A stretch of DNA of 64,000 nt. Source: an uncultured Candidatus Saccharibacteria bacterium. GTDB lineage: Bacteria; Patescibacteriota; Minisyncoccia; Phycocordibacterales; UBA2100. The position numbers and the translations under genes were made by a program. The stretch spans positions 1,061 to 65,060 of the forward strand of contig CAYWZA010000002.1 in the NCBI GenBank assembly GCA_964462785.1, written 5' to 3'. Below the pieces are notes generated by a model. The model was not told the origin of the DNA and did no database searches. It saw nothing but the letters and a program-made list of their open reading frames with translations. Positions 1-48,343 of this stretch are shown here, in pieces; the first letter of the stretch is position 1; every line of letters starts with the position of its first letter.

Positions 1-517
1 AACGACTTCGCAGCGGCGAAGAGAGGAGCGACGGGCGTGTGGTGGCGGCGACCAGCGTGAACGCGGGCAACTCCAGCTGCACTGAGCGCGCCGACGGTCC
101 TTTACCAATAATGATATCCAAAACTCCCGACTCCATGGCGGGGTAGAGCACCTCCTCTATGGTTTTATTGAGCCGGTGGATTTCGTCTATAAAGAACACG
201 TCTCCCGGGGAAAGGTTGGTGAGGATGGAAGCGAGGTCGCCGACACGCTCAATTGCCGGACCGGATGTAGATTTAAGCTGTGCACTAAGCTCCTTTGCCA
301 TCAGATGGGCGAGAGTAGTCTTTCCGAGCCCAGGCGGACCATACAAAAGCACATGCTCAGGCTGTTCTTTGCGTTCTTGTGCGGCGGTAAGCAGCACGCG
401 GAGGTTCTTTTTGATAGTTTCCTGTCCGACATATTCACTCCACACACTTGGTCGGAGTGCTTGATCGAGGGAAGCGAGTGTTTGCGACCCACCCGGCACA
501 TGTTTTTTCGATGACAT
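1..517 (-). CDS. ruvB: Holliday junction branch-migration helicase RuvB, partial (C-terminus runs off the window start)
   Basis: Reverse-strand translation from the ATG at 517 reads [10 protein letters not shown]...[21 protein letters not shown]...FFIDEIHRL. This gives Walker A and Walker B motifs with the typical RuvB N-terminus. It is absent from the ORF track because there is no stop codon inside the window. Confidence 0.85.
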
Positions 518-18953: not shown

Positions 18954-19142
18954 CGTGTCCCCTCGGCCGGAATCGGTCACGAATAAATCGCCTGACGGCG
19001 ATTTTTCGCTACCCCGGCTCGCGGTTTTTGTCTCCCCCTCATTTCATTCGGGGAAACAAAAACATCGCTGCGCCTTTCGATTCCGGACGCACAGTGCTCA
19101 AGCGCTATGCTCCGAGGGGACAGTTTTCGCTTCGCTCACGTG
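18954..19142 (-). repeat. tRNA-linked structured repeat element, copy E2, with a perfect 22-bp duplicate of the tRNA-Arg 3' end at its distal border
   Basis: The 22-mer cgtgtcccctcggccggaatcg occurs at 18954-18975 and again at 19139-19160. The second copy is the 3' end of the minus-strand tRNA plus 4 trailer nt. On the minus strand the interior holds the core gcagcgatgtttttgttt, hairpin 1, aaaaaccgcgagccgggg, hairpin 2 (aaatcgccgtcaggcgattt) and tcgtgacc. Confidence 0.7.
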
Positions 19143-19214
19143 TCCCCTCGGCCGGAATCGAACCGACATTACAACCTCCGCAAGGTCGCGTCCTATCCAT
19201 TGAACGACGAGGGG
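19143..19214 (-). tRNA. tRNA-Arg (predicted anticodon GCG, an unusual isoacceptor)
   Basis: The reverse complement folds as a cloverleaf. The acceptor CCCCTCG pairs with CGAGGGG. The D-arm is GTTCAATGGATAGGAC, the anticodon stem is CGACC/GGTTG, the loop is TTGCGGA and the T-arm is GTCGGTTCGATTCCGGC. Confidence 0.55.
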
Positions 19215-21793: not shown

Positions 21794-21969
21794 AGAGCTT
21801 GTTGAAAAACCCGGGTTCCCTAGCCGAGCGGTGCGGTTTCCGTCGCGAGACACTTCGGCGGAGGGCGAAATGTGCTGGTGGCACATTGAGACCGAGCCGA
21901 ATGTGTCGCAGCAGGAAACCGTACCGCGCAGGCAGGCAGGGAGGGGTTTTGAGACATGCTCTGGCCCCA

Positions 21970-21998
21970 TTGATTTTTCACGATACTTGGTGTATAAT
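21970..21998 (+). promoter_or_regulatory. Sigma70-type promoter (TTGATT, 17-bp spacer, TATAAT), copy 1 of a duplicated promoter
   Basis: The promoter region gccccattgatttttcacgatacttggtgtataatta shares about 40 bp of identity with 25583-25620 (2 mismatches). Confidence 0.65.
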
Positions 21999-22046
21999 TA
22001 AAACAGGCTGCGAGGGGACGCAGCGAATTTTGGAAAGGGAAAAAAG

Positions 22047-22367: not shown

Positions 22368-22535
22368 AACAGCGCAGCACAAAGTCAATCCCCCGAAATC
22401 AGCCAAAATATGGCGGGTTTCGGGGGATTTTTTAATGGCACACACTATCCCCACCTTTCAATTACACAGCGCCGCAGAGAGGCGCATAGTTATTACCAGA
22501 ACAAAGGAAGACAGAAGTATACAGGGAGGACCTTC

Positions 22536-25493
22536 ATGCGCATTGTTATCGCATGCATACTCGCGTTTGTCGTTGGGTCTTCCAGCGCAAACGCAGCGAT
22601 AAGCGAGGATGTACAACAGTTCATTCTCGATCATCTCAAGCTCGCCGTTCCTATTGAGGAGGCGCCGCAACCACCAGTATCGTTACGCGAGAAAGCGAAA
22701 ACGATCGCTGATGATTTGCAAAAAATATTCGAGTGCGAACGTCGTGGGTGTCTTGGGAAAGCCATCACCTATGGCGGAGAAAAGAATTCCATCCCCGAAC
22801 AGTACAAAGAATTGTTTGCACAGAAATTACAGCTCACGCCGCGCGATAAGGGCGGTGCTTCAGAGCCTGACGGTCGTGCCGTCCCCGGCATCATCATTGC
22901 TTTTATTGGCGCCTGTACGTGGGACGCCGCGGATTGTGACGGTGTGTACATAAATTCTGCACACCGCAACAAAAGTGGTGTCGGCAGTCGCCGGCACACG
23001 AATGATTTTGCAACGCGCGCTTTTGATCTGCTTGGATTCAAAGATATTGATCATCAGATCCGCTTCCTTACACGCATGGTGCTGGTGATAGAAGAGATGG
23101 GACTCGAGCCGAATCTTGGTCTCGGTCTTTCCACCGGCGAGGATGAAGAGGGTAGGGCAATTGCATATCAAGTAACACACATCGACGTGAATGGGCATGA
23201 GGTATCGCGCAAGAGTCGCTGCAAAACAATCTGTAGCAAATGCTCGAAAGTAAAGGGTAAGAGAAAATGCACCTGCAAAAGGCAATGCACGTCACGCGAA
23301 GGATCACATACATGGGATTATGGTCCGCGCACGGCACTGCAGATCATGTTGCAGGAAAAAATAGCAGCCGGACGACTTCCTGTGCAGTTTGCAGACAGCG
23401 TGCTCGTCACTCGCACACTCACCAGTAAATCTCTCGAGCATGAAGAGTCGAAAGATGCGCTGGCAGATGCTCAAGCCACGTCGCCGGTTTCAAGCCAAGG
23501 TAAGACACCGGCACAGCTGAAATACAATCTATGGGGCATCGAGTTTAAAAACTGGAGCCCTGGTCTTGATACGGTATATGGTCGGCAACTCTGTAAAAAG
23601 GGTGGACCGGTGCCGAATAAAGAAAACGTATTTTTCTGCGCATTCGATAATCCGATTGATGCGATGACTGCCTATTTTCTGAAAATCGATGCGTATTGTC
23701 GCAGTGGCATTTGTACGCCGCTCACGATAGCACGCGATTGGGTAGGGATGGGCGACATGGATGCCTATGGCAAAAATGCAGCGATCATCATCAAAGTAGG
23801 ACCGACAGAAGATATAGACAATCTGATAAAGCGGGTGCTTTTGATGCAGGCGCAGGCATGTCTTGAGCAAGGTTTCTGCGTATATTCCGAAGGGAAGCCG
23901 AAGGTGGTGGAACATTTGATCACGGCGTTTCCGTTTTCGCGCAACGAAATTTTTGCCGCTATTATTCGCGCACATTCCGAAAAGGTAGCAAATGAGTGGT
24001 TTGCGAGTACGGTGCCGCCGGTTGGGTTATTTGCCCCCGAGGAGCCGACACTTGCACCCATGACCCCGCTTACTTACAACGCACACTATGAGCCCGACGG
24101 GCGTTTAGTGGTTCCAGGAGTGCGCGCAGATTACAGCCTCTATAAACAAGGGGAGGCAAAATCACAGAAAGACACACTGACCATCATTCATGGCGATGTG
24201 TCGTTCAATTGCAAAGAGATTCAATCGCACTATCACGCATGCATCTCTCGTAATGGTGTGTTCAAGCAATTCCGTCCGTTCAGCGCGCGAGCGCCGCACG
24301 CGGCATACATGAACAGCTATACGACAGGTATCGTACTTCCCGGCATCGATAATTTGCCGCCGGCGCACAGTGCACTGCTGCCACCGACATTAGAACAGCT
24401 TGAAACACTCGCTCGGGTTTTGTTTGCGCGCGATGTTGCCGAAGGTCGACGAATTCCTTTTGCACGTCACCCCAATACCGAGCAGGGCAAAGGGCATAAG
24501 TGCTCCTGCGAAGCCGGCACGCCGGAAAGCGACGTATGGCTCGAGCAGCGCATACAGCAGCTGCACACTGAAAACAATACAAACTTAGAACTTCGCAAAG
24601 AAACACTGCTCAACTTGAGGGGTTCTACGGGTGGCATTGTCACCCGCAGCACATCTCAATTGCTGCAAAGCGTGGACGGCGGTGTGTTGGTGACTGATCC
24701 GCGAGGGTTGGTGCCAGGCGCACAGGCATTCTATCCGGCGGAGGAAATATCTCCGCCAGTTCTTGCTACTATTGCAGTGGTAAATGTTGCGCGACCTGCT
24801 TTATACGGGATCGACGCAACACTACTGCGCGATCCGACGTTTCGCTATCTGGTGGTGCATGAGGCGCATAGCACAGCCACAGAGGCGAGTATGCTGCGCG
24901 CGCTCGACACTGGCGTCTATGAACCAAATATTGATTGCGCACGGCTCTTTAGCGGATGCGCCATGTTTGGCTATCATGCGTTTTTGCCAAAGAAAGGCAG
25001 ACGCATACTGTGGATGGCACCTCGCGGCGCACGTGTAAACGGGATGCAACCTCCGGGGAGCATACCGCGCATGAACGGTGTCGCCGAAAACGCAGCGAAC
25101 ACCAATGCGCTTCATGTAGTACGCGAGGGCGATTCGTCAGAGCCGCTTACCGCGACTCAACAAAGCACGCTTAAGGCACTGAGTGAAGCATTTGCAATCG
25201 AGCCGTCGCACATCATTGGGCATGGCGAAGCACAACCAACAGGTGCCGAGGGGAGAGTGGATGGTATTGTTGCCGCGCGCTCCGTGCGCGGCGCCATAGC
25301 ACCCGACGCCGCTCCCTTAAACGCAGAGTCTGCGTTTAAGACATATCTCGCGCATCGTGCCAACATCTTACGCAATGCTCGTACGCCGCCGCTGCAGGAA
25401 AAAGTGCATGCGCTTGCGCGCGCATATAGCGGCACTATCAACGAAGATGCGGCGCTCGATCTGCTCGTCCCCAAACGACAGCCCGAGCACTGA
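22536..25493 (+). CDS. Secreted peptidoglycan hydrolase-like protein (about 985 aa) with a GH73 glucosaminidase-like central region and an Amidase_2 (AmpD/T7-lysozyme-like) C-terminal domain
   Basis: The start follows the RBS agggagg. The signal peptide ends ...SSSANA. The GH73-like motifs are YNLWGIEF and FCAFDNPIDAMTAYFLKI. The Amidase_2-like motifs are YLVVHEAHSTA and SHIIGHGEAQPTGAEGRVDG, matching the I.GH.E..P....DPG pattern. The ORF track extends upstream to 22410. Confidence 0.55.
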   Translation: MRIVIACILAFVVGSSSANAAISEDVQQFILDHLKLAVPIEEAPQPPVSLREKAKTIADDLQKIFECERRGCLGKAITYGGEKNSIPEQYKELFAQKLQLTPRDKGGASEPDGRAVPGIIIAFIGACTWDAADCDGVYINSAHRNKSGVGSRRHTNDFATRAFDLLGFKDIDHQIRFLTRMVLVIEEMGLEPNLGLGLSTGEDEEGRAIAYQVTHIDVNGHEVSRKSRCKTICSKCSKVKGKRKCTCKRQCTSREGSHTWDYGPRTALQIMLQEKIAAGRLPVQFADSVLVTRTLTSKSLEHEESKDALADAQATSPVSSQGKTPAQLKYNLWGIEFKNWSPGLDTVYGRQLCKKGGPVPNKENVFFCAFDNPIDAMTAYFLKIDAYCRSGICTPLTIARDWVGMGDMDAYGKNAAIIIKVGPTEDIDNLIKRVLLMQAQACLEQGFCVYSEGKPKVVEHLITAFPFSRNEIFAAIIRAHSEKVANEWFASTVPPVGLFAPEEPTLAPMTPLTYNAHYEPDGRLVVPGVRADYSLYKQGEAKSQKDTLTIIHGDVSFNCKEIQSHYHACISRNGVFKQFRPFSARAPHAAYMNSYTTGIVLPGIDNLPPAHSALLPPTLEQLETLARVLFARDVAEGRRIPFARHPNTEQGKGHKCSCEAGTPESDVWLEQRIQQLHTENNTNLELRKETLLNLRGSTGGIVTRSTSQLLQSVDGGVLVTDPRGLVPGAQAFYPAEEISPPVLATIAVVNVARPALYGIDATLLRDPTFRYLVVHEAHSTATEASMLRALDTGVYEPNIDCARLFSGCAMFGYHAFLPKKGRRILWMAPRGARVNGMQPPGSIPRMNGVAENAANTNALHVVREGDSSEPLTATQQSTLKALSEAFAIEPSHIIGHGEAQPTGAEGRVDGIVAARSVRGAIAPDAAPLNAESAFKTYLAHRANILRNARTPPLQEKVHALARAYSGTINEDAALDLLVPKRQPEH

Positions 25494-25545: not shown

Positions 25546-25589
25546 ACTAACGCAGAGAATTCCTTTTATCAACAGGGTTTTTAGCCCCA

Positions 25590-25618
25590 TTGATTTTTCA
25601 CGATGTTTGGGGTATAAT
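25590..25618 (+). promoter_or_regulatory. Sigma70-type promoter, copy 2 of the duplicated promoter
   Basis: The promoter region gccccattgatttttcacgatgtttggggtataatta has TTGATT, a 17-bp spacer and TATAAT. Confidence 0.65.
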
Positions 25619-25667
25619 TAACATGGTGCCCTGGAAAGGAATGGGGCGGAAACAGAAGGTAAAACAG

Positions 25668-26089: not shown

Positions 26090-29000
26090 ATGGTACGCGT
26101 TTTATGCGGGTTAATCTTTGTATGCACACTCGCATCTTTTGTCCACACAACCTCAGCACAAGCTCAAAGTAAAAATTGTACGCCCGGGGGTACCTGCAGC
26201 ACCGAATTGGAAGGGGATACTACCACCACCGTTAGTGCCGGAGAAGACAAGGGTACCGCCACACAAGATACGCAACAGACAGGAAGCTGCACAAAAGAGC
26301 TGCAAGCGGCAGGAAAATGTAAGCCGGAGTGTCCAAAAGTAAACTATTCGAGTGTAACCGGTGGGATTGTCACCTGCTACAGCGAGGTGAGCGACAGCTG
26401 CTATATGAATGATAACGCCGGCACTGCTGAGTGTTCGAGTGACGAGATGCAAAAAATTATTGACGGGAAAACTCCTCCGCAAACTACCGATTACGTAGGT
26501 ACGCCGGGGTCACAGAGTGGCTCCTCTAGTGGGGTTCAAAGTCCTGAGATCGAAGCACAGAAGGCATTGCGCGACGCGGAATATAAGTTGGCACAGGCAC
26601 AAAAAAATTATGATCAGTGCTGGTGGGGTTGTGCTGATGAAAAAGCGGCGCTTGAGCAAGCTCAACAAACACGCGATGCAGTGCAAGATTCTGCAGATTA
26701 TCTTAACGAAATTGCCAATAAACCACCCGGTACCTACATACCCGAAACCCCATTGAATACAGCGTTGCAAAATAGTTGGGCTAACAATGTATTGCAACAG
26801 CCCGCACCGGCAGTAACAGAGAGTCGCTTGGGCGATTTCGGTAGCGGATTACGCGAAGCGCTCAGTCCTGATTCTTTTTCGAACTCAGCCTTTCGAGATC
26901 AGTGGAACGGGTGGAATCCAAACGTAACACCGAGCGACGGGGCGTTCAATCGTTTTGATTTTGGAAATAATAGCGGATTCAACTCATTTGGGCAGTCGGT
27001 CGGCAGTGATATTTCTGGAGGGCTGAGTGCTGGTCCGAGCTCATTCACTCCTTTTTCTTTTGACAGTGGCTTAACTGGGAGCCCGTACGATGGGTCCGCC
27101 CCGTTCGAGCCATTCGACTATGAAACTTCCCCCATCGGACCGGGTTGGGGGAATGACGACCTCGGAAAACTATCAAATTTCGATTTCTCGAATGCGCCGC
27201 TGCAGCCAAGCACTCTGCAAGATCTATCGAATTTAAATAACGGGTTATTACCCACACTCCCCAGTGTTTCAGATCCACTTGGTGCCCTGAAAAGTTTGGA
27301 TTCGGAGCAACTTCCTACGGTGTCAGATGCTCAATCACCGAATGATTTTCTTGGACTCAAGGCTATCGCAGAGCAACAACCGCCTGAAGGCAGCGGATTG
27401 AGTGCCGAGGATTTCAGCGAGCGCCTCGAAGTGTTTAAAAAAGGATTCGGCAATGTGGTGGACAGCCTCACTGAGGGGGTGCAGGGTATTTTTGCGGGAG
27501 ACATCAGCGCACCTGATTTTTGGGATAAAACACTTAAAAATATCGGCGTTGGTGTCAACGCTGGTTTGGGTGAAGGGGGAGTACGCCTCGGCGGCATCCT
27601 CGACTACTCTCCGCTAAGCGATGGCGGGCTATTGCCTGGTCTGCGGCAGACGGTCAAAGACGTGTTTGGGTGGGGAAGTGATGTCGCGACACCACCCGAG
27701 ATACCATCGGGGATACAAGGCGGCGGAGCGCTGACCGCAGGTGAGTCATATCGGCGAGAGCTCGATGCTGCGAAACAAGCATCCGCAGCTGCGGGCGAGC
27801 GCGCACGGCGAGCAGACGAAAACGCTCGCAGCACGGGATCCTATGATCCAGACAATGCCTTTGAAGTGGAAAGATACAATGCGGCGCAGGCAGAAATAAA
27901 AGCCGCACGTGAGGAGCAAGCAGCTGCGCAAGCGCGGCTTGCGGCAGCACAGGCGGATGTTGATCGTATCCGCGCGCGCGACAACCAAGTCCCCGGGCAG
28001 GGGAGCATTGCGAATACGGGCGTGAATGAAGCTAAGGTGGTGGCAGATTCGGGCGTACGCGATACACAGGGAACAGAAAGTCTTGCGTACCAGCGTGCAG
28101 CAAAAGACTACCAGGCATTATTACCCCTCGCGGCTCCGGTTACCAACGCTCTGCAAGACGCGAATAGCGCCTGGATAAAACGAGCTGAAGAAATAGGGCT
28201 CATTGAAAATATCGGAACAGCTGATAAGCCGCAATATCGAATACGCCCTGAACTCACGGAAACGCAACGGATCAATAAAATGGGAATGCTGCGCGACGAG
28301 ACCGATCGTCTCAATTTGGCAAAAGATCAATACAAGACATATGCAGAGACGCTCAAAGATGCTCGCGACAAAACTCTGTATGCGGCAGGTGCAGATCCGT
28401 TGTTTTCGGACGCCGCGCGGGCAAATGCACTTTTGGGCGATATGCGTCTAAGACCTGAACAAGAAATACCCATTGATGAATATTGGCAAGACAAAAATGG
28501 ACTGGCAATGGGAGTGGGCGCAGCGGGAGCTATGGGAAGATATGTTCTTAGAATGGATCCTTATCAACCAGTCATCAACTCAAATGCGCAAGAAATTGCA
28601 TTTAATGAACTGCAGGCAAAACAAGAAGCACTCATTCAATCATTAGCGGGATGTACCGACTGTCAAAATGTTATTGAAGCGATTGAACGCAACAATGAAC
28701 TTGCAAAACAATTTGAAAGCGGACAGTTTGAGGGAGCGCAAAAAGACTATCTCATAAAACTTTCAGACCAAAACCCTATTCAAAGGGATCTTCCAGTAGG
28801 GGATTTAACCACACAAGAATTAGCTTCGCGGGCAAGCAATGAATGGGGAAGGCTGCTCCGCGGTACGCAAGAATATCTTGGCGCGGAAATGGGTAAGGCG
28901 TGGGAGGAGGGAGAATATGGCAAAGCAACAGCTCTTTTCTTGCTACAAACCCCAGGGCAGATCACACAAGGCTTGCTCGGGGCTGAGTCGCTCCAAGGAC

Positions 29001-32000
29001 TTGGGCAAACACTATATGGTGCTGACACCAGTATTCTCGGGCTGACAATTCCCGGAGGGGAAGCGGGCTATAATATTGTAAGAAATGTCACCGATGCAGG
29101 GACTTTATCTGTAGTTACGGGTGCCTACTTATTTCCAGGACCGGCAGGGTTAGCACTAAGGGGAGCTGATAGCCTTGCCGCCAGCGCGGGGCGCTTTGCG
29201 GGTAACATTGCGGACGTCAGATCCGCCTTGAATGTTGCCGATAGTGGAGCGGGCTTTGGGTATGATTTTTCAGGGCGACCATCGGCGGATGCAATCATTC
29301 GTGATGGGGGCTTAGCAGTGGTACCCGAGAACAACATATCTACTGCGCCCGCGCGTGATGGTGGCTCAAGTCCTCCGCCTCAATTAACCTCGAACGCACC
29401 ATCTCCCACATCACGCTCCGTCACTCAACCCCCTCCATTGCGTAATGAATTCTCACCCACAGGTGGTGCGCGCACCAGTGGCAATGCGGTGCAAGGAGCG
29501 CCCCCCTCCGCCTCATTTATTCCAGGGACTTCGCCGCTCGGCGATCTTGCAGACGCAATGCGTCGAGGATCACCGACACTGATCACCCCGTCTAATTTCG
29601 GTCGGACCGGCGACGACGTTCTCTTCGGTGGTGCGGCGAATGACAATCTAATGGGCTCTACTCCTGCCGGAGGTCCGCCTTTGGAAAATAGGTGGTTTGC
29701 ATTTGCGCGCGCTCCCGAGGATGGAGGGGGAGCGGGGCGTGGAGGCACGATCATACCGTTTACTCCACGAGCGTCCGAGCTCCCAAGTGTCGGCGGTGGG
29801 GACACTATTGTATTTAGAGAAGGTTTTGGCAGTGATGCACCACCAGCTCGCGTGGACGCAGGTGCTATTGATGACGCGACACTGCGTGAGCTCGAAAACA
29901 TTCTCGCGAACGAGCCGGATCAATTTGTGTTTCGTACTGTTGATGATGCCGTCACACCCGATGGCGTGACAGATCTGTTGCAGCGCCGATACGGAGGAGC
30001 ATCTCTAGAGGAAATCGCAAAAGCACGGGAGGCAATACGGCTGAATGAAGCTGCCCGTCGTCTTGATTCTCAAAACACTTCGCAGGCAACCGCGGATGCA
30101 AGCACTTTGCGTGCCCGCGCTGCACAAATCGCAACCGACATCAATGATCCTGCTTTGGGTAGATTGGCTGAATCGTGGGGAGGGGAAAGAGCGCCGAGCG
30201 CAGCAGGTGCTGGCGTTCCAGATAGTGTCGTTGCAGCAGAGGCGGCACAGCCAAAACCCGCTTCTGGAATTTTATCCCCCATTACCAACACTCCATTCGC
30301 AAGAGCGTTGTGCGTTATAGGTGGCTTGTTCTGTGGGTCGCAAGCTGTTCCTGGGCAGTTGGTAAACGATCTCAATCCGTTGGGTATAAGTTCGGCAAAT
30401 GCAAAGCCGGCAGCGCTTCCGGTCCAATTAGTGCATGACGGTGTCTTGGGGGTTGAGACAGGTGCGGCGTCGACATACAACCCGAATGTGGTCGGGTGGA
30501 GAACGGGTGGGGAAAAACTTGCAACAGGCGGAAGATACAATCCCGATGAATTTGAAGCTGCGCTACAGACAGGATTGGCGGAACAGTATCGAATGGGGCA
30601 CAGCAGATACCCCAATGTCGGGTACGCGCTTGTGGAAGCGGAAGGCAGAAAACTTATTGTACGCATTAATGACAACGGTCCATTAGTTCGCAATCGCATC
30701 ATCGATCTCAACGAAGCCTCGATGCGCTATTTAAGTGGTGGTAGATATGGCAACAATTCGGGAGTATTGCAAAATACACGAGTAACTGTTTTGGCAGGAC
30801 AAAACTATACGCCGGGACCGCTTGCGAATGATGCCACTCTTCTCGCTCGGGCTGAAATACCGCCCGCAAGTCCAACAGCACCTCGCATAGAAACAGGATC
30901 ACTGAGCGCCCCTAAGTCAGCGGTGGATTCCGCAGTTGATGAAATTACAAAAAGGGCGGAGCAGGTGGGTGACGCTGTTAGAAAAGCAGGCGATGATCTT
31001 GCGAAAGCACTCGATATACGCCCCGGCACTCCGGAAACTGACTTCATGAAAAACGTGCAAGGGAAATTAGTGGAAACACCACCACCAGCGGCATTGATCA
31101 AAAATTTTGACGTTAACAATCACACTTCCGCAGAAGCAAGAGCGGTCCAGGAGGCGCTTAGAGCCCAGGGGTATGACACAGCTGTTGATGGAGTTATCGG
31201 TCCGCAGACAATACGCGCGCTCGAAAGCGCGAGAGTGGATATTGATGGTGCGTTGCGCAATATTTTCACAGACCAAGCTGACTATCAGCAAGCGCGCAGG
31301 ATATTCCTCGAAAGATTTAAAGGTATGCCCAAAAATTTTGAGCAACCACTGCTCACCATGTTGCGAAAGATGCAAGAGGCTGGTCAGGCGCTGCCCGGCG
31401 ATAATCAGCCGATCGTGCTGGTTAACGTAAGCGGAAGCAGAGAGGGGGTTGCCATTATGTCGCTCACACACAACGACGGGCTCCTTCTTTGGGAGGGAAG
31501 TCCGACACTCAGAGTCGGCGTAGCAGCTAATGGCCCGATTGATTGGGCAAAAGATTTTATTGGCTCGAACAAAACGATAGTGGGCTCAGTAGCAAAAATT
31601 ATTGGTGGGGAACATCGTGGAGACAAGGCTTGGGCAGTGGGCGCGCTTTATCGGGAGTCAATAGATGGGGGATTACAGAACGAGAGAGTCACATGGTATC
31701 ACGGAGTTTCTAATCGCGCCGTTACACCAGGCCAGCGCCCCAACGCAACATCGGGGTGTGTTTCAATGTGTTCTCTAGTGATGCAAAATTTGTATGATCA
31801 AGTGCTGGGAACCCCTGGTGTGGGGGAACCGGGGTGGCAACTCGCAGGTAGAGATGGGGCAGTGCGGGGAGCAAATAAGATTAACGGGGGATATACGTAT
31901 GAATTTTCTGAGCAAGTGACAAACAGCGTTGGTGTTGCAGAAAATAAGGCAATTGCCCAGAAAGAGCCGGTGATGGTTGCTGATGCTGCGCCAGGTGGTG

Positions 32001-34447
32001 GTGCGACTCAGGGTCTTACTCCTGAAACCGCCGAAATCGCTCGGGTGTATGAGATATCCGGAGAGACTGGAACGATACCAAAGGGAGCGATCCTTGAGGT
32101 GAGCCCGGATGGAAAAACATTAACCTATGGCGAGACCGTGTACCAAGCAAAACAGATTTCTGGAGAACCGATTCCGCTAGAACCCGCATCAGCACTTTCA
32201 ATTATAGATTTGAAACCTTTACAAGTGGACTGGCTAGACAGAATACAGATTGAAGGCGTTCCGAAGCTGGGACTAGAACTTCAGGTGTGGCGACCAGATT
32301 TCAACGCCGCGGTTGAAAATGTGATGCGGGGGGTCAATGATGGCATCTCTGAATTCAAACAAATCGTCAGTGGCGTACCCGGCGACATATCAAAATGGGT
32401 TTCTAGAAACAGCTTTAATGTCAGTGTTAGTCTTGAACCGAATCCGGCATGGCTTAAAGCGGTTGGAGATAGTGCTAATACTGCTGCAGAGCGAATAACA
32501 ATAATGTATCGGGACGCATATGCTGCTTTGGACGACTTCCCGTCAGCACCTCCCACGCCAGGTGACCCATTATTCGGTCTATTCGCCTTGGGTAGCACGC
32601 GACGCACATCAAATGCACCATCCCAAACACCAATACCCGAGGGGGTAGACACTCCGCCCGCAGGACTTGGGTTGCAGGCACCACCTTCAAAAATAGCAGG
32701 CACGGGTGATACACAGAAATTTGTACCTACCTCGCGCAACATTAATCCAGCACCGGTACGCGCGATTGATGATATTCCCGCACCGACAGATGGCGTAACT
32801 CCGCCATTGTCACGGACTCAACCTGATGTTACTGAGGGTATGAGTAAATCTGGTCGCACGGGAGGAGCTTCGATCACTGATGACACTGCCACAAACGGGA
32901 CAGTGCCCGCGAAACAAGACACTCCGCCCGCAGGACTTGGGTTGCAGGCACCACCTTCAAAAATAGCAGGCACGGGTGATACACAGAAATTTGTACCTAC
33001 CTCGCGCAACATTAATCCAGCACCGGTACGCGCGATTGATGATATTCCCGCACCGACAGATGGCGTAACTCCGCCATTGTCACGGACTCAACCAGTTGGT
33101 GATTCCGCTGCGAACATGACAGAACTCATGAGCCGAAGCGCACAGCAAAGTGCGCCAGCCACAGCCGCTTCAGTGGGTGCCATGAAGAAAGTTTCAAATA
33201 CAATCCGCGCTTGTGTAAATGGGGGATGGACGACGGCGAAGTGTGCGGGTGTTGCAATAGTCGCAACGTGGGCTGGGACATGCGCACTAACGGGGTACGA
33301 CGGTGTTCCATGCAATTGGCAAGGGACAAGGACAGGCACATGCATATCGGACGGAGGGAGGAAATGTGTTACAGGAGCATCCCCAGGAGCGGATGCAACA
33401 AAAGATGGTACAGAAAAAACACCACCTGCGGATACAGATAAAGACAGAACTGGCGCAGGCGCACCTCCACCAGATGATACAGGCGCAGGGAGGAGACCGC
33501 CTCCAAGTGCCCAGACGCCACCCAATAGTGGCACTGCAGCACCTACACGCACCACACAAGGAGGATCGGGTGGAAGTGGTCTTGGTGGATTGATGGGAAT
33601 GCTCGGGCAATTTATGCAGATGCTTACCGGGCAGGGAGCGCAAGAGCCAGATGCATCACCAACAGGATCGCCTAAGGCACCGACAACAGTGACTCTCTCC
33701 TGCGATCCGTCAATTATTCTCAATCGTGGCACGACAACGATTCGCTGGGCGTGCTCAGGTAATGAGCGCAGTACGGGAGTGAATTTCGATACACGCGGCG
33801 CGCCGTCGGGATCGGTGGAGCGGGGTATTGATACCATCGAGCAGAGCATGCAATTTGGCGTTTCGTGTGGCGGCAGCGCGCCGCGCAGCTGCTCAGTGCG
33901 CGTACTGCACCCGCGCATCACACTCACCGCATCTCCGGGCGAAGTGGAAAGCGGCACGCACGCACGACTCAATTGGGCTGGAGTGGGCGTGCGATCATGC
34001 GGAGTGCTCGCGCCTACCTCAAATGAAATTGCGCGCGGGACGGCGACAGGATTTGTCGACACGCCCGATCTCACACGCTCACAGCGCTTTGCGGTGGTCT
34101 GCTCTACTGATGCAGGCAAGCCTGTGCATGAATTCATTACCGTGCGCGTCGCAGGCGATGACACGGATCCGGAAGTAGTGGAGATTCCTGAAGCGTATAT
34201 GCGCACCACGCCTTCCTCCGCGGCGTCAGCGCTGCCCACCGCAGTGAGCGATCTGCCCTCAGAAGAGGGGAGTAGTTTCTTCGATGGTTCTGCAAATACT
34301 CCATCGCCCAGCGCACCACAAGAGCCGATCACACCGCCCCCCGGCACGTTCACCGCAACTGATGCTCAAGGCAACGCCGTCTTCCTCTGTGATCCTGAAG
34401 CAGGTATTGATACCTATATTTCGTGCATATCCGGAGGAAGGTGGTAG
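26090..34447 (+). CDS. Giant secreted multidomain protein P5 (2785 aa) with coiled-coil regions, a PG_binding_1 domain, a YkuD-like L,D-transpeptidase fold, an RlpA-like double-psi beta-barrel, an internal exact repeat and the family C-terminal twin beta-domain
   Basis: Signal peptide is MVRVLCGLIFVCTLASFVHTTSAQA. The RlpA/DPBB-like segment is TGGRYNPDEFEAA...LIVRINDNGPLVRNRIIDLNEASMRYL. The PG_binding_1 segment is TSAEARAVQEALRAQGYDTAVDGVIGPQTIRALE. The YkuD-like segment is WYHGVSNRAVTPGQRPNATSGCVSMCSLVMQNLYD. The Gly/Met motif is GGSGGSGLGGLMGMLGQFMQMLTGQG. The C-terminal 200 aa align with P1, P2 and P4. Confidence 0.8.
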   Translation: MVRVLCGLIFVCTLASFVHTTSAQAQSKNCTPGGTCSTELEGDTTTTVSAGEDKGTATQDTQQTGSCTKELQAAGKCKPECPKVNYSSVTGGIVTCYSEVSDSCYMNDNAGTAECSSDEMQKIIDGKTPPQTTDYVGTPGSQSGSSSGVQSPEIEAQKALRDAEYKLAQAQKNYDQCWWGCADEKAALEQAQQTRDAVQDSADYLNEIANKPPGTYIPETPLNTALQNSWANNVLQQPAPAVTESRLGDFGSGLREALSPDSFSNSAFRDQWNGWNPNVTPSDGAFNRFDFGNNSGFNSFGQSVGSDISGGLSAGPSSFTPFSFDSGLTGSPYDGSAPFEPFDYETSPIGPGWGNDDLGKLSNFDFSNAPLQPSTLQDLSNLNNGLLPTLPSVSDPLGALKSLDSEQLPTVSDAQSPNDFLGLKAIAEQQPPEGSGLSAEDFSERLEVFKKGFGNVVDSLTEGVQGIFAGDISAPDFWDKTLKNIGVGVNAGLGEGGVRLGGILDYSPLSDGGLLPGLRQTVKDVFGWGSDVATPPEIPSGIQGGGALTAGESYRRELDAAKQASAAAGERARRADENARSTGSYDPDNAFEVERYNAAQAEIKAAREEQAAAQARLAAAQADVDRIRARDNQVPGQGSIANTGVNEAKVVADSGVRDTQGTESLAYQRAAKDYQALLPLAAPVTNALQDANSAWIKRAEEIGLIENIGTADKPQYRIRPELTETQRINKMGMLRDETDRLNLAKDQYKTYAETLKDARDKTLYAAGADPLFSDAARANALLGDMRLRPEQEIPIDEYWQDKNGLAMGVGAAGAMGRYVLRMDPYQPVINSNAQEIAFNELQAKQEALIQSLAGCTDCQNVIEAIERNNELAKQFESGQFEGAQKDYLIKLSDQNPIQRDLPVGDLTTQELASRASNEWGRLLRGTQEYLGAEMGKAWEEGEYGKATALFLLQTPGQITQGLLGAESLQGLGQTLYGADTSILGLTIPGGEAGYNIVRNVTDAGTLSVVTGAYLFPGPAGLALRGADSLAASAGRFAGNIADVRSALNVADSGAGFGYDFSGRPSADAIIRDGGLAVVPENNISTAPARDGGSSPPPQLTSNAPSPTSRSVTQPPPLRNEFSPTGGARTSGNAVQGAPPSASFIPGTSPLGDLADAMRRGSPTLITPSNFGRTGDDVLFGGAANDNLMGSTPAGGPPLENRWFAFARAPEDGGGAGRGGTIIPFTPRASELPSVGGGDTIVFREGFGSDAPPARVDAGAIDDATLRELENILANEPDQFVFRTVDDAVTPDGVTDLLQRRYGGASLEEIAKAREAIRLNEAARRLDSQNTSQATADASTLRARAAQIATDINDPALGRLAESWGGERAPSAAGAGVPDSVVAAEAAQPKPASGILSPITNTPFARALCVIGGLFCGSQAVPGQLVNDLNPLGISSANAKPAALPVQLVHDGVLGVETGAASTYNPNVVGWRTGGEKLATGGRYNPDEFEAALQTGLAEQYRMGHSRYPNVGYALVEAEGRKLIVRINDNGPLVRNRIIDLNEASMRYLSGGRYGNNSGVLQNTRVTVLAGQNYTPGPLANDATLLARAEIPPASPTAPRIETGSLSAPKSAVDSAVDEITKRAEQVGDAVRKAGDDLAKALDIRPGTPETDFMKNVQGKLVETPPPAALIKNFDVNNHTSAEARAVQEALRAQGYDTAVDGVIGPQTIRALESARVDIDGALRNIFTDQADYQQARRIFLERFKGMPKNFEQPLLTMLRKMQEAGQALPGDNQPIVLVNVSGSREGVAIMSLTHNDGLLLWEGSPTLRVGVAANGPIDWAKDFIGSNKTIVGSVAKIIGGEHRGDKAWAVGALYRESIDGGLQNERVTWYHGVSNRAVTPGQRPNATSGCVSMCSLVMQNLYDQVLGTPGVGEPGWQLAGRDGAVRGANKINGGYTYEFSEQVTNSVGVAENKAIAQKEPVMVADAAPGGGATQGLTPETAEIARVYEISGETGTIPKGAILEVSPDGKTLTYGETVYQAKQISGEPIPLEPASALSIIDLKPLQVDWLDRIQIEGVPKLGLELQVWRPDFNAAVENVMRGVNDGISEFKQIVSGVPGDISKWVSRNSFNVSVSLEPNPAWLKAVGDSANTAAERITIMYRDAYAALDDFPSAPPTPGDPLFGLFALGSTRRTSNAPSQTPIPEGVDTPPAGLGLQAPPSKIAGTGDTQKFVPTSRNINPAPVRAIDDIPAPTDGVTPPLSRTQPDVTEGMSKSGRTGGASITDDTATNGTVPAKQDTPPAGLGLQAPPSKIAGTGDTQKFVPTSRNINPAPVRAIDDIPAPTDGVTPPLSRTQPVGDSAANMTELMSRSAQQSAPATAASVGAMKKVSNTIRACVNGGWTTAKCAGVAIVATWAGTCALTGYDGVPCNWQGTRTGTCISDGGRKCVTGASPGADATKDGTEKTPPADTDKDRTGAGAPPPDDTGAGRRPPPSAQTPPNSGTAAPTRTTQGGSGGSGLGGLMGMLGQFMQMLTGQGAQEPDASPTGSPKAPTTVTLSCDPSIILNRGTTTIRWACSGNERSTGVNFDTRGAPSGSVERGIDTIEQSMQFGVSCGGSAPRSCSVRVLHPRITLTASPGEVESGTHARLNWAGVGVRSCGVLAPTSNEIARGTATGFVDTPDLTRSQRFAVVCSTDAGKPVHEFITVRVAGDDTDPEVVEIPEAYMRTTPSSAASALPTAVSDLPSEEGSSFFDGSANTPSPSAPQEPITPPPGTFTATDAQGNAVFLCDPEAGIDTYISCISGGRW
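32648..33093 (+). repeat. Exact 176-bp direct repeat (period 270 bp) inside the giant gene
   Basis: The segment 32648-32823 matches 32918-33093 with no visible mismatch. Each encodes DTPPAGLGLQAPPSKIAGTGDTQKFVPTSRNINPAPVRAIDDIPAPTDGVTPPLSRTQP. The ORF track shows identical antisense ORFs over both copies. Confidence 0.85.
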
Positions 34448-34563: not shown

Positions 34564-35040
34564 TCAAAATCCAAAAAACTCTGCGAGGGTGTATATAAAT
34601 GACTGATGCAATTCTATTTCCGGCACGCGCTCTGCGAGAAATGCGCGCACCATATTCGGATCAACATCAGTAAGGGGAATGATCAGATCGGGATTCATAA
34701 TACGGGGCGTGTCAATTAATAGTGTCGGCTCGTCATCCTCGCTCACCCAGAATGCGCGCATTTCTTCATAGGGGTAGAACGTATCTCCCACAGCAAGCCC
34801 GCGCTCACCGAGCGCGAATTCAACAACGGCGGGCGGGCGCTTTGCCAGCATGCCGAGCGTGACCCCTCCGAGCACGATAAGCAGTGCGAAGAGCACATTA
34901 TTCAGCAGCACCGCAGTCAGTGCGGAGGACATGATGATAATACCGAGCGCCCAGTACCAATCACTGCCGCGCTCTATGTGTTGGTGTTCTTGACCAGACC
35001 ATGTGATCGTTTCGTTCATGGAGTGATGGTATTCCCGCAC
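34564..35040 (-). CDS. Hypothetical membrane protein (158 aa)
   Basis: There are two hydrophobic helices near the N-terminus and no recognisable family. The ORF overlaps the pilin gene's stop by 25 nt, so the true start may be the internal MNETITW. Confidence 0.4.
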   Translation of the reverse strand: MREYHHSMNETITWSGQEHQHIERGSDWYWALGIIIMSSALTAVLLNNVLFALLIVLGGVTLGMLAKRPPAVVEFALGERGLAVGDTFYPYEEMRAFWVSEDDEPTLLIDTPRIMNPDLIIPLTDVDPNMVRAFLAERVPEIELHQSFIYTLAEFFGF

Positions 35041-35432
35041 CCTTCCGAATATCCTTTGATGGTATCCGTCTCAAGACAAAATGAAATAGTAAATGAAGAT
35101 CCGTTTGCGGGTGTTACATACGTATAATCCTGCACGGGGGAAGCCGGATCATGCGGGACGGCATTAATGACTCCGGCATTTTCGAGCACCGTTGAAAGAC
35201 CGTCTTCGCCAGTGATATCAATCGGGGTGGTCGTGATGGGGAAAACACCGCCGCTTGTCACGGCATACGATGCAAGTGATTTTGCAATCGTGTTTACATC
35301 AGATATGCGTCGCGCGTCGCGTCCGCGTTTTTGTACCGCGCCAAAAGATGCCATGGCTACGGCGCTCAAAAGCCCGATGATGGCGATCACCACTAAAAGC
35401 TCAATCATCGTAAATCCACGTCGGGGTTCCAT
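35016..35432 (-). CDS. Type IV pilin / pseudopilin (prepilin with N-terminal methylation motif)
   Basis: The N-terminus MEPRRGFTMIELLVVIAIIGLLSAVA is the class III signal, with Gly-Phe-Thr-Met-Ile-Glu and a hydrophobic helix. A C-terminal Cys pair is present. Confidence 0.8.
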   Translation of the reverse strand: MEPRRGFTMIELLVVIAIIGLLSAVAMASFGAVQKRGRDARRISDVNTIAKSLASYAVTSGGVFPITTTPIDITGEDGLSTVLENAGVINAVPHDPASPVQDYTYVTPANGSSFTISFCLETDTIKGYSEGCGNTITP

Positions 35433-39366: not shown

Positions 39367-40542
39367 ATGACAGTGGATTATGCCGCATATCCGGCATATT
39401 TTGCCTATATAATTGTATGTATGAACGACTTCTCGTGTCGCTGTGAACTGCCGCCACTCAAATCGCGCGGTTTCCTCGACCGGTGGTTTCCACTTCCCAA
39501 CGTGCTGTTTCCCCGCGCAGCGGGGGTGGATATATCTGACAGCTCAGTCAAATGGCTTTCGCTGGAACAAACCCCGCGAGGCTTTCATGTGCGCGCATTC
39601 ACTCAGGTAGCTCTTGAACCGGGGATTGTGGTAGAGGGCATTGTGCGCGATGAGGAAAAACTGGCGCAAGCCATACGCACACTACACGCGCAAGCGCGGA
39701 CGGGGTCATATGTACATGCGGCACTTCCCGAAGAAACCGGCTTTGTATTTACGATGCACGTTGTTGGTCTCGGCAGCAGAGAACAAGTATTGCGCATGAT
39801 CGAATTTGAGATTGAAGATCACGTGCCATTGCCGATTGATAGCATTGTCTACGATTACGATGTCATCAGCCTGCATTCGGGCGATGAGGGGGCTGAAATT
39901 AGCGTGACCGCGTTTCCGAAGTCGATCGTCGAAAGTTATGTTCAGGCGTTCGATCGCGCGGGAATGAAGCTCCTTTCGCTTGAATCTGAGGCAAGCTCAA
40001 TCGTGCGCTCGGTGTTGCCCGCGCACAGCAAGGATGTTGTCCTCATCGCAGACTTTGGACGCGCCCGCACGGGCATCATTATCGTGAACCGCGGTGTCCC
40101 CATTTTCACCTCAACCGTGAGTGTGGGGGGAGATGCCATGACGAAAGTCATCATGGAAACCATGTCGGTTGATGCCGATAAAGCGGAAGAGTTTAAGAAT
40201 GAACATGGTATTGCGCGCGATGGAGACAAGCGCGTTGTCGAGGCGATTGCTGGCACTGCCGGTGCGCTTGCTGATGAAATTGCGAGACACTTTTCATATT
40301 GGGACACGCGGCGCGATGAGCATGGTCGGCGGGTGACGCCAGTTGCGCGCGTGATTTTAACCGGCGGGAGTTCGAATCTAAAAGGACTCGATGAGTATGT
40401 TGCGGGCAGAGTGCGCGCGCCGGCAGGGCATGCACACGTATGGCAGAACGTGTGCTCATTTGATGAATACATTCCGCCGATTGATTCGCATCATGCTCTC
40501 GGGCTTTCAACGGGCATCGGGCTTGCTCTGCGCGGTATCTGA
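39367..40542 (+). CDS. pilM: Type IV pilus assembly protein PilM (actin-like ATPase fold)
   Basis: GVDISDSSVKWLSLE near the N-terminus, GGDAMTKVIM and VILTGGSSNLKGL match PilM/FtsA-like motifs. The gene is followed directly by pilN- and pilO-like genes. Confidence 0.75.
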   Translation: MTVDYAAYPAYFAYIIVCMNDFSCRCELPPLKSRGFLDRWFPLPNVLFPRAAGVDISDSSVKWLSLEQTPRGFHVRAFTQVALEPGIVVEGIVRDEEKLAQAIRTLHAQARTGSYVHAALPEETGFVFTMHVVGLGSREQVLRMIEFEIEDHVPLPIDSIVYDYDVISLHSGDEGAEISVTAFPKSIVESYVQAFDRAGMKLLSLESEASSIVRSVLPAHSKDVVLIADFGRARTGIIIVNRGVPIFTSTVSVGGDAMTKVIMETMSVDADKAEEFKNEHGIARDGDKRVVEAIAGTAGALADEIARHFSYWDTRRDEHGRRVTPVARVILTGGSSNLKGLDEYVAGRVRAPAGHAHVWQNVCSFDEYIPPIDSHHALGLSTGIGLALRGI

Positions 40543-41969: not shown

Positions 41970-42041
41970 TGCGTACATTGCCCTCGTAGTTTAATGGATA
42001 AAACTCCGGACTTCTAAGCCGGCTATCGAGGTTCGATTCCT
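41970..42041 (+). tRNA. tRNA-Arg (anticodon TCT)
   Basis: The acceptor GCCCTCG pairs with CGAGGGC. The D-arm is GTTTAATGGATAAAAC, the anticodon loop is CTTCTAA and the T-arm is CGAGGTTCGATTCCTCG. Confidence 0.75.
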
Positions 42042-42095
42042 CGCGAGGGCACACAAGCACAAAACCTGCCCTGCGGCAGGTTTTGTGCTTGTGTG
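42042..42095 (+). terminator. Strong hairpin terminator after tRNA-Arg-TCT
   Basis: The stem is cacaagcacaaaacctgcc, the loop is ctgc and the return strand is ggcaggttttgtgcttgtg. Confidence 0.7.
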
Positions 42096-42285
42096 CCGGG
42101 CGCAGCGATGTTTTTGTTTGCCGACGCGAAGCGAGGCAAGGCAAAAACCGCGAGCCGGGGTCGCGAGATTTTTCCGTCAGGAAAAATACTCGTGACCACA
42201 AAAAGCGCTTAGTGACCGTCAGGTTGATTCCTACCGAGGGCACACACAAACATCCCGCCTGCGCGTGATGTTTGTGTGTGCCAGC
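42096..42285 (+). repeat. tRNA-linked structured repeat element, copy E3, with a degenerate duplicate of the tRNA-Arg-TCT 3' end and a terminal hairpin
   Basis: The core gcagcgatgtttttgtttgccgacgcgaagcgaggcaaggcaaaaaccgcgagccggggtcgcga is followed by hairpin 2 (gatttttcc, gtca, ggaaaaatac), then tcgtgacc, then ggttgattcctaccgagggcaca at 42222-42244. The matching tRNA 3' end is ggttcgattcctcgcgagggcaca. The perfect inverted repeat cacacacaaacatc...gatgtttgtgtgtg closes the element. Confidence 0.7.
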
Positions 42286-48319: not shown

Positions 48320-48343
48320 CATTGGAAGCTATCGACAAAGAAA

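What the first reader, a model, noticed from the sequence alone, without database searches (positions are those of the whole stretch)
32648..33093. Recent exact 176-bp duplication inside the giant surface-protein gene
Two nucleotide-identical 176-bp segments lie 270 bp apart in frame. Each encodes a 58-aa Pro-rich unit (DTPPAGLGLQAPPSK...PPLSRTQP). Perfect identity at the DNA level implies a very recent duplication or ongoing gene conversion. Such repeats are typical of contingency or surface-variation loci. They can also cause assembly collapse.
Basis: seen in the sequence. Interest (0 to 1): 0.5.

Follow-up and report, generated by a model that had tools for sequence, protein, structure and literature searches.

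The report
Recent in-frame duplication in giant gene
A 177-base stretch really does occur twice, letter for letter and in frame, inside the proline-rich linker of a 2,785-residue secreted cell-wall-targeting protein of a groundwater Parcubacteria bacterium. It is an ordinary young duplication, and its main practical effect is that it breaks the public short-read assembly of this genome exactly at the repeat.

Summary
The exact repeat is 177 nt (32647-32823 = 32917-33093). The copies are separated by a unique 93-nt spacer, giving a 270-nt period (90 codons) in ORF 26090-34447. Each copy encodes an identical 59-aa unit with 20% proline.

The window belongs to the same population as public MAG GCA_016181805.1 (Parcubacteria, agricultural groundwater). 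One public contig stops 99 nt into copy A. Another starts 99 nt before the end of copy B. A k=31 Logan contig starts 30 nt before the end of copy B. These are the break points expected in de Bruijn graphs at a true repeat, so both repeat edges have two contexts in the reads. The 249 nt between the two public contigs are not in the public assembly.

No sequence similarity extends beyond the 177 nt, and no homologue carries the unit. It lies in a non-conserved linker, predicted as coil, between two conserved modules.

Best reading: a young, lineage-specific, in-frame, non-tandem duplication that lengthens a flexible tether. Copy number (1, 2 or more, or a mixture) cannot be fixed without reads. 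The "contingency locus" reading has no support. A DGR is excluded and an artefact is unlikely. The finding is ordinary and of low interest.

The parts
26090..34447 (+). Giant ORF of 2785 aa encoding a secreted multidomain protein. Publicly annotated only as a partial protein (HYT30_01150, aa 106-2218).
26090..26167 (+). N-terminal signal-peptide-like hydrophobic segment (MVRVLCGLIFVCTLASFVHTTSAQAQ). It is the only strongly hydrophobic stretch apart from a weak one at aa 1407-1425.
   Evidence: Kyte-Doolittle maximum 1.97; the cleavage site is inferred
30461..30733 (+). DPBB_1 (RlpA-like lytic transglycosylase fold), aa 1458-1548.
   Evidence: 29.8 bits against a cut-off of 28.8 on the sub-sequence; 27.8 on the whole protein
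31139..31237 (+). Peptidoglycan-binding domain (PG_binding_3 / PG_binding_1), aa 1684-1716.
31226..32209 (+). Conserved uncharacterised domain (aa ~1713-2040), 41-52% identical to P0002, P0003 and P0005. Invariant His1871, Cys1890 and Cys1894. No Pfam or PDB sequence match.
32647..32823 (+). Repeat copy A, 177 nt, encoding aa 2187-2245.
32824..32916 (+). Unique 93-nt spacer S (31 codons, DVTEGMSKSGRTGGASITDDTATNGTVPAKQ). No match elsewhere in the window.
32917..33093 (+). Repeat copy B, 177 nt, identical to copy A, encoding aa 2277-2335.
32746..32994 (+). The 249 nt absent from public assembly GCA_016181805.1. Contig JACOYQ010000011 ends at 32745 and contig JACOYQ010000012 begins at 32995.
33530..34444 (+). 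Conserved C-terminal module: two Cys-containing beta-rich units plus the terminal motif ATDAQGNxVxLCDPxxGIxxFxxCL. More than 300 Patescibacteria-type proteins share it.
25584..25621 (+). Promoter-like 38-mer (TTGATT-17-TATAAT) upstream of the operon. A 92%-identical copy lies at 21964-22001, upstream of the preceding giant gene.
   Evidence: family D3; function is inferred

Best explanation
This is a real, evolutionarily young, lineage-specific segmental duplication inside a giant secreted gene. A 177-nt segment (59 codons) is present twice, 93 nt (31 codons) apart. The protein therefore carries 90 extra residues in an otherwise non-conserved linker rich in Pro, Thr and Gly.

That linker joins the N-terminal cell-wall-binding and lytic part of the protein (DPBB, PG-binding and a conserved His/Cys domain) to a conserved C-terminal module.

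Shown:
- The repeat is exact and in frame.
- Its edges are branch points in two independent short-read assemblies.
- No similarity extends beyond its edges.
- No homologue carries the unit.

Inferred:
- The duplication simply lengthens a flexible extracellular tether, and is nearly neutral or modestly changes reach.
- Being 270 nt per step, any later loss or gain by recombination or slippage between the two copies would stay in frame.
- It arose as one non-tandem event (a copy of A placed 93 nt downstream, or a 270-nt A+S / S+A insertion), not as a plain tandem duplication.
For: - Exactness, frame and uniqueness of the repeat.
- Public contig 11 ends at 32745, exactly 99 nt into copy A. Public contig 12 begins at 32995, exactly 99 nt before the end of copy B. 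A node-centric k=100 graph, or MEGAHIT's k=99 step, breaks in exactly these places when a repeat has two predecessors and two successors. The genome was assembled with MEGAHIT defaults plus IDBA-UD scaffolding (PMC7906910).
- I predicted that a k=31 Logan contig would start 30 nt before the end of copy B, at 33064. The predicted partial protein was found on contig SRR12113430_114546.
- Because A[1..99] and A[79..177] are both shared graph nodes, the whole 177 nt must be identical in both contexts in the reads (inference).
- The window matches contig 11 at 16341/16341 positions. It matches contig 12 except for one SNP and one homopolymer indel, so it is an independent assembly of the same population.
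- The flanks are unrelated.
- The unit is absent from all 150 best family members and from 1.84 billion representative proteins.
- The region is 20% Pro and 39-46% P/G/S/T. AlphaFold predicts no secondary structure over aa ~2164-2339.
Against: - No reads were available. Copy number, and whether every cell carries two copies, are therefore not shown. The same assembly graph fits one copy plus two copies mixed, or three or more copies.
- The source assembly of the window is unknown. A loop-resolving assembler emits both copies from one graph node.
- The origin of the spacer S is unexplained.
- Low AlphaFold confidence is not diagnostic here. The conserved domain aa 1710-1990 also scored pLDDT 34 in single-sequence mode.
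- The functional consequence is pure inference.
Confidence: 0.66

Rival explanations
1. The duplication is real but polymorphic. The 270-nt step is gained and lost by recombination or slippage between the identical copies, so the population holds a mixture of alleles with one, two or more copies. On this reading it is a length-variation module of the tether, and the window shows only one allele.
For: - The graph implied by the contig breaks is identical for a mixture of alleles and for a fixed two-copy allele.
- 177-nt direct repeats only 93 nt apart are known substrates for RecA-independent deletion in E. coli (my knowledge, not tested here).
- Any copy change is in frame.
- The sample does hold minor polymorphisms elsewhere.
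Against: - No sequence with another copy number was found in any collection.
- The population is otherwise nearly clonal, with 2 differences in about 47 kb.
- There are only two copies and no array.
- Among the 150 best relatives of the C-terminal 1035 aa, long near-identical repeats are uncommon and none lies in the equivalent linker. The closest relatives have none, apart from a 20-aa repeat in P0016. More distant C-terminal-module proteins (P0058, P0111, P0144) do repeat whole folded domains.
Confidence: 0.2
2. An old tandem repeat of a ~90-aa unit whose core is kept identical by ongoing gene conversion, while the rest of the unit diverged.
For: A faint motif resemblance follows each copy (TEGMSKS after A, TELMSRS after B). 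The nearest homologue P0004 has a doubled AAKM(S/G)QSA motif in the equivalent place.
Against: - Spacer S and the sequence flanking the two copies on either side are no more similar than shuffled sequence, at the DNA level (p = 0.85 and 0.59) and the protein level (p = 0.29 and 0.96).
- A and S show no significant similarity to P0004 (p = 0.38-0.95).
- No homologue has an A-like unit.
- The drop from 100% identity to background is abrupt at both ends.
Confidence: 0.07
3. Assembly artefact. The genome has only one copy of A, and the spacer with the second copy was introduced by a wrong path through the assembly graph or by gap filling.
For: - The public assembly does not contain 32746-32994.
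- The full-length protein is in no public collection.
- The window's assembler is unknown.
- MAG coverage is low, about 16x judging from the bin name (my reading of the naming convention).
Against: - With one copy there would be no branch, and k=99/100 and k=31 assemblers would run straight through. Instead three contig ends sit exactly k-1 bases inside the repeat edges.
- The inserted 270 nt keep the frame, and S has no stop codon.
- S is flanked by A on both sides, which needs reads for both the A-to-S and S-to-A junctions.
Confidence: 0.06
4. Template and variable repeat pair of a diversity-generating retroelement, or another programmed variation system.
For: DGRs are common in CPR bacteria (my knowledge). 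The two repeats are about the right length.
Against: - The copies are identical, with no adenine-specific differences.
- Both copies lie inside the same ORF, far from its 3' end.
- No reverse transcriptase appears among the Pfam hits of the genes in the window.
- There is no Rfam hit.
Confidence: 0.01

Closest known systems
Intragenic repeats that fragment giant genes in short-read metagenome assemblies (West-Roberts et al., bioRxiv 10.1101/2023.11.21.568195)
   Same: A giant secreted gene linked to cell-wall degradation in an uncultured bacterium, where a repeat longer than the assembler's k-mer ends the contigs and leaves the gene annotated as partial.
   Different: The gene is ten times smaller than those giant genes. 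There is a single two-copy repeat rather than a repeat-rich region. The organism is a Parcubacteria, not Omnitrophota.
DNA-identical repeat surface proteins of Gram-positive cocci (alpha C/Rib of group B streptococci, SasG/Aap, Esp). This comparison rests on my own knowledge.
   Same: In-frame, nucleotide-identical repeats in a secreted or surface protein. Recombination between the copies could change protein length without frameshift.
   Different: Those are head-to-tail arrays of many copies encoding folded domains in LPXTG-anchored proteins, with documented copy-number variation. Here there are two copies separated by a unique spacer and no folded domain is predicted. There is also no LPXTG motif and no variation data.
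Proline-rich interdomain linkers of cell-wall hydrolases and adhesins
   Same: Composition is 20% Pro, with low hydrophobicity. The region lies between conserved modules, is not conserved, and varies in length among homologues.
   Different: Such linkers usually show low-complexity short repeats, not one long exact duplication.
Simple-sequence contingency loci (phase-variable genes of Haemophilus, Neisseria and Campylobacter)
   Same: Only the general idea that repeats in surface genes generate variation.
   Different: Contingency loci use 1-9-nt tracts whose length changes shift the frame or the promoter spacing. Here the unit is 270 nt, always in frame, and present twice.

Membership tests
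Tandem DNA-identical repeat surface proteins (Rib/alpha C, SasG/Aap type) | Head-to-tail array of two or more identical units | tested here: not met
   The copies are separated by a 93-nt unique spacer. The 270-nt period holds over only 177 positions. TRF finds no array.
Tandem DNA-identical repeat surface proteins (Rib/alpha C, SasG/Aap type) | The repeat encodes a recognisable folded domain | tested here: not met
   No Pfam family reaches its cut-off; there is only a sub-threshold DUF7208 hit at 17.6 against 27 bits. No predicted secondary structure. No homologue of the unit.
Tandem DNA-identical repeat surface proteins (Rib/alpha C, SasG/Aap type) | C-terminal LPXTG sortase anchor | tested here: not met
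   No LPXTG motif and no C-terminal hydrophobic segment.
Tandem DNA-identical repeat surface proteins (Rib/alpha C, SasG/Aap type) | Copy number differs between strains | not testable with these tools
Simple-sequence contingency locus | Short-unit (1-9 nt) tract whose length change switches expression | tested here: not met
   The unit is 270 nt (90 codons), and there is no simple-sequence tract in or near the repeat.
Diversity-generating retroelement (TR/VR pair) | Reverse transcriptase gene nearby | tested here: not met
   No RVT family among the Pfam hits of the genes across the window.
Diversity-generating retroelement (TR/VR pair) | The repeats differ at adenines of the template, with the variable repeat at the 3' end of the target gene and the template outside it | tested here: not met
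   177/177 positions are identical. Both copies lie inside the ORF, about 1.4 kb from its end.
Recent intragenic segmental duplication | Two copies with (near-)zero divergence, sharp edges and no similarity beyond them | tested here: met
   177/177 identity. The flanks are indistinguishable from shuffled sequence.
Recent intragenic segmental duplication | Both junctions present in sequencing reads, so it is not an assembler product | tested here: inconclusive
   The support is indirect but specific. Contig ends sit exactly k-1 nt inside both repeat edges in a k~99/100 assembly, and at one edge in a k=31 assembly. The reads themselves were not available.
Recent intragenic segmental duplication | Single-copy state in related lineages | tested here: inconclusive
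   Homologues P0002-P0006 lack the unit altogether, because the linker is not conserved. No close relative was found.

The most novel reading that the evidence does not exclude
The two identical copies act as a built-in, always-in-frame recombination module. On this reading the Parcubacteria population keeps a mixture of tether lengths (one, two, three or more units) for a giant enzyme that attacks the host cell wall. The reach of that enzyme would then be tuned to different host envelopes, giving a length-variation system in an episymbiont.
Probability: 0.08. Interest if true: 0.4.

Novelty: new member of a known kind. Interest (0 to 1): 0.15.

Why it matters
Biologically it matters little. 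Young in-frame duplications in disordered linkers of large secreted proteins are common and usually close to neutral.

The practical value is for curation:
- The repeat explains why public MAG GCA_016181805.1 has two contigs that stop inside this gene.
- It shows that contigs JACOYQ010000011 and JACOYQ010000012 are neighbours.
- It supplies the missing 249 nt.
- It turns a "partial" 2113-aa annotation into a complete 2785-aa gene.

It is also a clean worked example of reading the k-1 overhang of contig ends as evidence that a repeat exists in the reads.

If copy number proved to vary in the population, this would be a small, testable case of tether-length variation in a CPR protein directed at a host cell wall.

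Tried and rejected
- Tandem Repeats Finder on the whole window returned nothing, because this is not an array.
- A simple 270-nt tandem duplication is rejected. It would give 270 identical positions, and only 177 are identical.
- Older similarity around the copies was tested by shuffle tests on DNA and protein. Nothing was significant. The same holds for comparisons with the nearest homologue P0004. My initial impression of a shared TEGMSKS/TELMSRS motif does not survive the test.
- Searches for other copies, strains or relatives:
  - The exact full-length protein is not on record.
  - The word-based protein search finds only the public partial protein.
  - The C-terminal part finds nothing.
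  - An exact 42-mer of the repeat in GTDB species genomes gives 0 matches.
  - JGI metagenomes searched with peptide patterns from A, S and the flanks give 0 matches.
  - GTDB genomes searched with the C-terminal module give one distant locus, L008, with no repeats.
- An exact-sequence look-up of the predicted Logan partial products of the S loop, the A unitig and the upstream contig found none of them. The positive control (the product found) was also "not in the collection", so the test is uninformative.
- Rfam and tRNA scans found nothing in the repeat.
- A DGR is rejected (see the membership test).
- For the conserved domain at aa 1713-2040, a profile search of PDB sequences found nothing. 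The single-sequence AlphaFold model was too poor (pLDDT 34) to use in a fold search. My guess of a YkuD-like His/Cys fold therefore remains untested.
- I first read the consecutive accession numbers of contigs 11 and 12 as meaning they came from one split scaffold. I rejected this, because their order and orientation do not fit and the numbering follows contig length (33,948 then 31,354).
Full report
**1. The observation**

The stated region holds two letter-identical direct copies. Extending the match base by base gives 177 nt: 32647-32823 and 32917-33093. The repeat finder reports 182 nt at 99%.

The copies start 270 nt apart. Between them lies a 93-nt unique spacer S (32824-32916). Since 177 = 59 codons, 93 = 31 codons and 270 = 90 codons, the frame is kept. 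Both copies lie in ORF 26090-34447 (2785 aa). Each encodes the same 59 residues, DTPPAGLGLQAPPSKIAGTGDTQKFVPTSRNINPAPVRAIDDIPAPTDGVTPPLSRTQP, at aa 2187-2245 and 2277-2335.

Nothing comparable exists elsewhere in the window. The next-longest direct repeat is 38 nt at 92%. Neither A nor S has a third copy at the DNA or protein level. Tandem Repeats Finder is silent, because this is not a head-to-tail array. Chance is not a candidate explanation.

**2. Where the window comes from, and an independent check on the repeat**

The flanking genes are chromosomal: PolA, ArgRS, IleRS, PilM, CofD, a PilB-type ATPase, TsaE and tRNAs.

The only protein in a 5.8-billion-sequence collection that matches the giant ORF is P0001. 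It is 100% identical to aa 106-2218 and is annotated "hypothetical protein HYT30_01150, partial", from a Parcubacteria group bacterium, on contig JACOYQ010000011.1 of GCA_016181805.1. That accession is bin GD2017-2_S1_QB3_180125_Parcubacteria_53_16 from agricultural groundwater at Modesto, California (He et al. 2021, PMC7906910, supplementary file 25). It was assembled with MEGAHIT defaults and scaffolded with IDBA-UD.

Contig 11, reverse-complemented, matches the window at 16341 of 16341 positions and ends at window 32745, exactly 99 nt into copy A. Contig JACOYQ010000012.1, reverse-complemented, begins at window 32995, exactly 99 nt before the end of copy B. It then matches the window except for one SNP and one homopolymer indel. 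The 249 nt at 32746-32994 are therefore missing from the public assembly.

A de Bruijn graph with k of about 99-100 would end unitigs at exactly these points if the 177-mer has two different predecessors and two different successors. These k values correspond to MEGAHIT's default k=99 step or IDBA-UD's default maximum k=100 (defaults from my own knowledge).

I then predicted that a k=31 Logan contig would begin 30 nt before the end of copy B, at 33064. I looked up the product that such a contig would encode (33065-34447). It is on record, on contig SRR12113430_114546, gene at positions 2-1384.

So three contig ends from two assemblers sit exactly k-1 bases inside the repeat edges defined from the window. 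A[1..99] and A[79..177] each behave as shared graph nodes, and together they cover the whole unit. The identity of the two copies is therefore supported by the read graph, not only by the window's assembler (inference).

The window differs from contig 12 at two sites:
- C/A at 36694, inside tRNA-Ser.
- T5/T4 at 57612-57616.

Two of the four Logan contigs recovered begin within five bases downstream of these sites, and a third ends four bases upstream of the SNP. The window is thus a separate assembly of the same, nearly clonal population. I could not identify which assembly it is.

**3. What the repeat is not**

- It is not a simple tandem duplication. Duplicating any 270-nt segment would give 270 identical positions, and only 177 are identical.
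- It is not the homogenised core of an older, diverged repeat, as far as I can tell. S and the sequences before copy A and after copy B are no more similar than shuffled controls, at the DNA level (p = 0.85 and 0.59) and the protein level (p = 0.29 and 0.96). A, S and the downstream segment show no convincing similarity to the N-terminal part of the nearest homologue P0004 (p = 0.04-0.95). A motif resemblance I noticed by eye (TEGMSKS / TELMSRS) fails these tests.
- It is not a DGR template/variable pair. The copies are identical, both lie inside the ORF, and no reverse transcriptase appears among the Pfam hits across the window.
- It is not an RNA element known to Rfam.
- It is not a simple-sequence contingency tract.

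**4. The gene and the place of the repeat in it**

The protein starts with a signal-like hydrophobic segment and has no other strongly hydrophobic stretch and no LPXTG motif. It carries:
- A DPBB_1 (RlpA-like lytic transglycosylase) domain at aa 1458-1548.
- A peptidoglycan-binding domain at aa 1684-1716.

An exhaustive HMMER search of 1.84 billion representative proteins with aa 1751-2785 found 322 relatives. Giant proteins P0002 (3651 aa), P0003 (2335 aa) and P0005 share a conserved domain at aa ~1713-2040. This domain is 41-52% identical and has invariant His1871, Cys1890 and Cys1894. It has no Pfam or PDB sequence match. Hundreds of proteins share the C-terminal module at aa ~2480-2785.

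Nothing aligns to aa ~2040-2331. A direct phmmer search with the 59-aa unit, the spacer and the whole linker against the 150 best relatives gave only the self hit. The repeat therefore lies in a lineage-specific linker between two conserved modules.

That stretch is 13-14% Pro and 39-46% P/G/S/T per 100-aa block, and the unit itself is 20% Pro. A single-sequence AlphaFold model shows no secondary structure at all over aa ~2164-2339.

One caveat applies. The same method gave pLDDT 34 for the clearly conserved domain aa 1710-1990, although it did predict helices and strands there. Low confidence alone therefore says nothing. Only the complete lack of predicted elements, the composition and the lack of conservation count toward a flexible linker.

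**5. Most likely explanation**

A young, lineage-specific, in-frame, non-tandem duplication adds 90 residues to a flexible extracellular tether. Zero differences in 177 sites gives a 95% upper bound of roughly 1.7% divergence (my arithmetic).

The protein appears to be a secreted enzyme that binds and cleaves cell wall, in an episymbiotic Parcubacteria. The functional effect is inferred to be small. Identical 177-nt copies 93 nt apart are a plausible substrate for deletion or further amplification, and both would stay in frame. This last point rests on established E. coli work that I recall and did not test here.

How the 93-nt spacer arose is unexplained. Three routes are possible:
- A copy of A was placed downstream of S.
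- A 270-nt A+S or S+A insertion occurred.
- Parts were lost from a larger structure.

**6. What remains open**

The assembly graph implied by the contig ends fits three cases equally well:
- A fixed two-copy allele.
- A mixture of one-copy and two-copy alleles.
- More than two copies.

No read data, no other strain and no close relative could be reached. An attempt to find the short Logan unitigs by exact product failed its own positive control.

Among the relatives recovered, long near-identical repeats are uncommon and none falls in the equivalent linker. The close full-length relatives have none apart from a 20-aa repeat in P0016. A few more distant C-terminal-module proteins (P0058, P0111, P0144) repeat whole folded domains. 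There is therefore no sign that this linker is generally a duplication hot spot.

A one-copy artefact is unlikely. A single copy would not create branch points. The extra 270 nt also keep the frame and contain no stop codon.

**7. Comparison with known systems, and verdict**

The nearest known phenomenon is the repeat-driven fragmentation of giant secreted genes in short-read metagenomes (bioRxiv 10.1101/2023.11.21.568195).

The resemblance to the DNA-identical repeat surface proteins of Gram-positive cocci is superficial. It fails the tests for a tandem array, a folded repeat domain and an LPXTG anchor.

This is a new instance of a well-known kind of event. Its value is mainly for curation. 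It links two public contigs, supplies 249 missing bases and completes a gene annotated as partial. Interest is low.

Noticed in passing
window 59907-63320 (+): The isoleucyl-tRNA synthetase (1137 aa) carries a full histidine-phosphatase (His_Phos_1) domain at aa 492-672, inserted between two stretches of the class I catalytic domain (E = 1.2e-37). The same architecture appears in the NCBI and Logan copies. This is an unusual fusion or insertion.
   Followed up: no
window 21964-22001 and 25584-25621: Two 38-nt promoter-like sequences (TTGATT-17 nt-TATAAT), 92% identical. One lies upstream of the small ORF that precedes the Amidase_2 gene (22410-25493). The other lies upstream of the small ORF that precedes the giant gene studied here (family D3). 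The two small ORFs (106 and 119 aa) are not homologous.
   Followed up: partly
window 33530-34444; proteins P0002-P0150; locus L008 7469-10744: More than 300 proteins share a conserved C-terminal module, many of them giant and with varied cell-wall-related N-terminal parts. It consists of two Cys-containing beta-rich units plus the terminal motif (F/Y)xATDxxGNxVxLCDPxxGIxxFxxCL. It could be a sorting, secretion or attachment signal of Patescibacteria, and it has no Pfam match.
   Followed up: partly
window 31226-32209 (aa ~1713-2040 of the giant protein): A conserved uncharacterised domain shared with giant proteins P0002, P0003 and P0005 (41-52% identity). His1871, Cys1890 and Cys1894 are invariant, in a WxHG...GC motif reminiscent of L,D-transpeptidase (YkuD) catalytic sites. 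There is no Pfam or PDB sequence hit, and the single-sequence AlphaFold model is unusable.
   Followed up: partly
window 3052-7221, 22410-25493, 26090-34447, 42314-43819: Four secreted proteins with peptidoglycan-related domains sit within 45 kb: PG_binding_1 (1389 aa), Amidase_2 (1027 aa), DPBB plus PG_binding_3 (2785 aa) and PG_binding_1 (501 aa). They lie next to type IV pilus genes: a PilB-like ATPase at 853-2571, a prepilin at 35016-35432 and PilM at 39367-40542.
   Followed up: no
window 13590-13648, 18975-19066, 42107-42197: A dispersed element of ~55-60 nt (76-96% identity, in both orientations) lies next to three tRNA genes: tRNA-Lys 13406-13479, tRNA-Arg 19142-19214 and tRNA-Arg 41980-42052. 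It contains a hairpin followed by a T-run (families D5, D8, I2, I3).
   Followed up: no
window 36694 and 57612-57616: These are the only differences between the window and the public MAG over about 47 kb: C/A in the variable region of tRNA-Ser(tga), and a T5/T4 homopolymer upstream of argS. Two of the four Logan contigs recovered begin within five bases downstream of these sites, and a third ends four bases upstream of the SNP. This suggests within-sample polymorphism.
   Followed up: partly
window 47618-48483: An ORF with a faint LAGLIDADG_3 hit (219-233 aa) lies immediately upstream of tRNA-Leu(gag) at 48344-48430. A perfect 28-nt inverted repeat at 48425-48483 overlaps the 3' end of the tRNA (pair I5).
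   Followed up: no
window 32648-33190 (aa 2292-2319): A sub-threshold Pfam hit of the repeat unit to DUF7208 (17.6 bits against a cut-off of 27, E = 0.0019). It is probably compositional.
   Followed up: no
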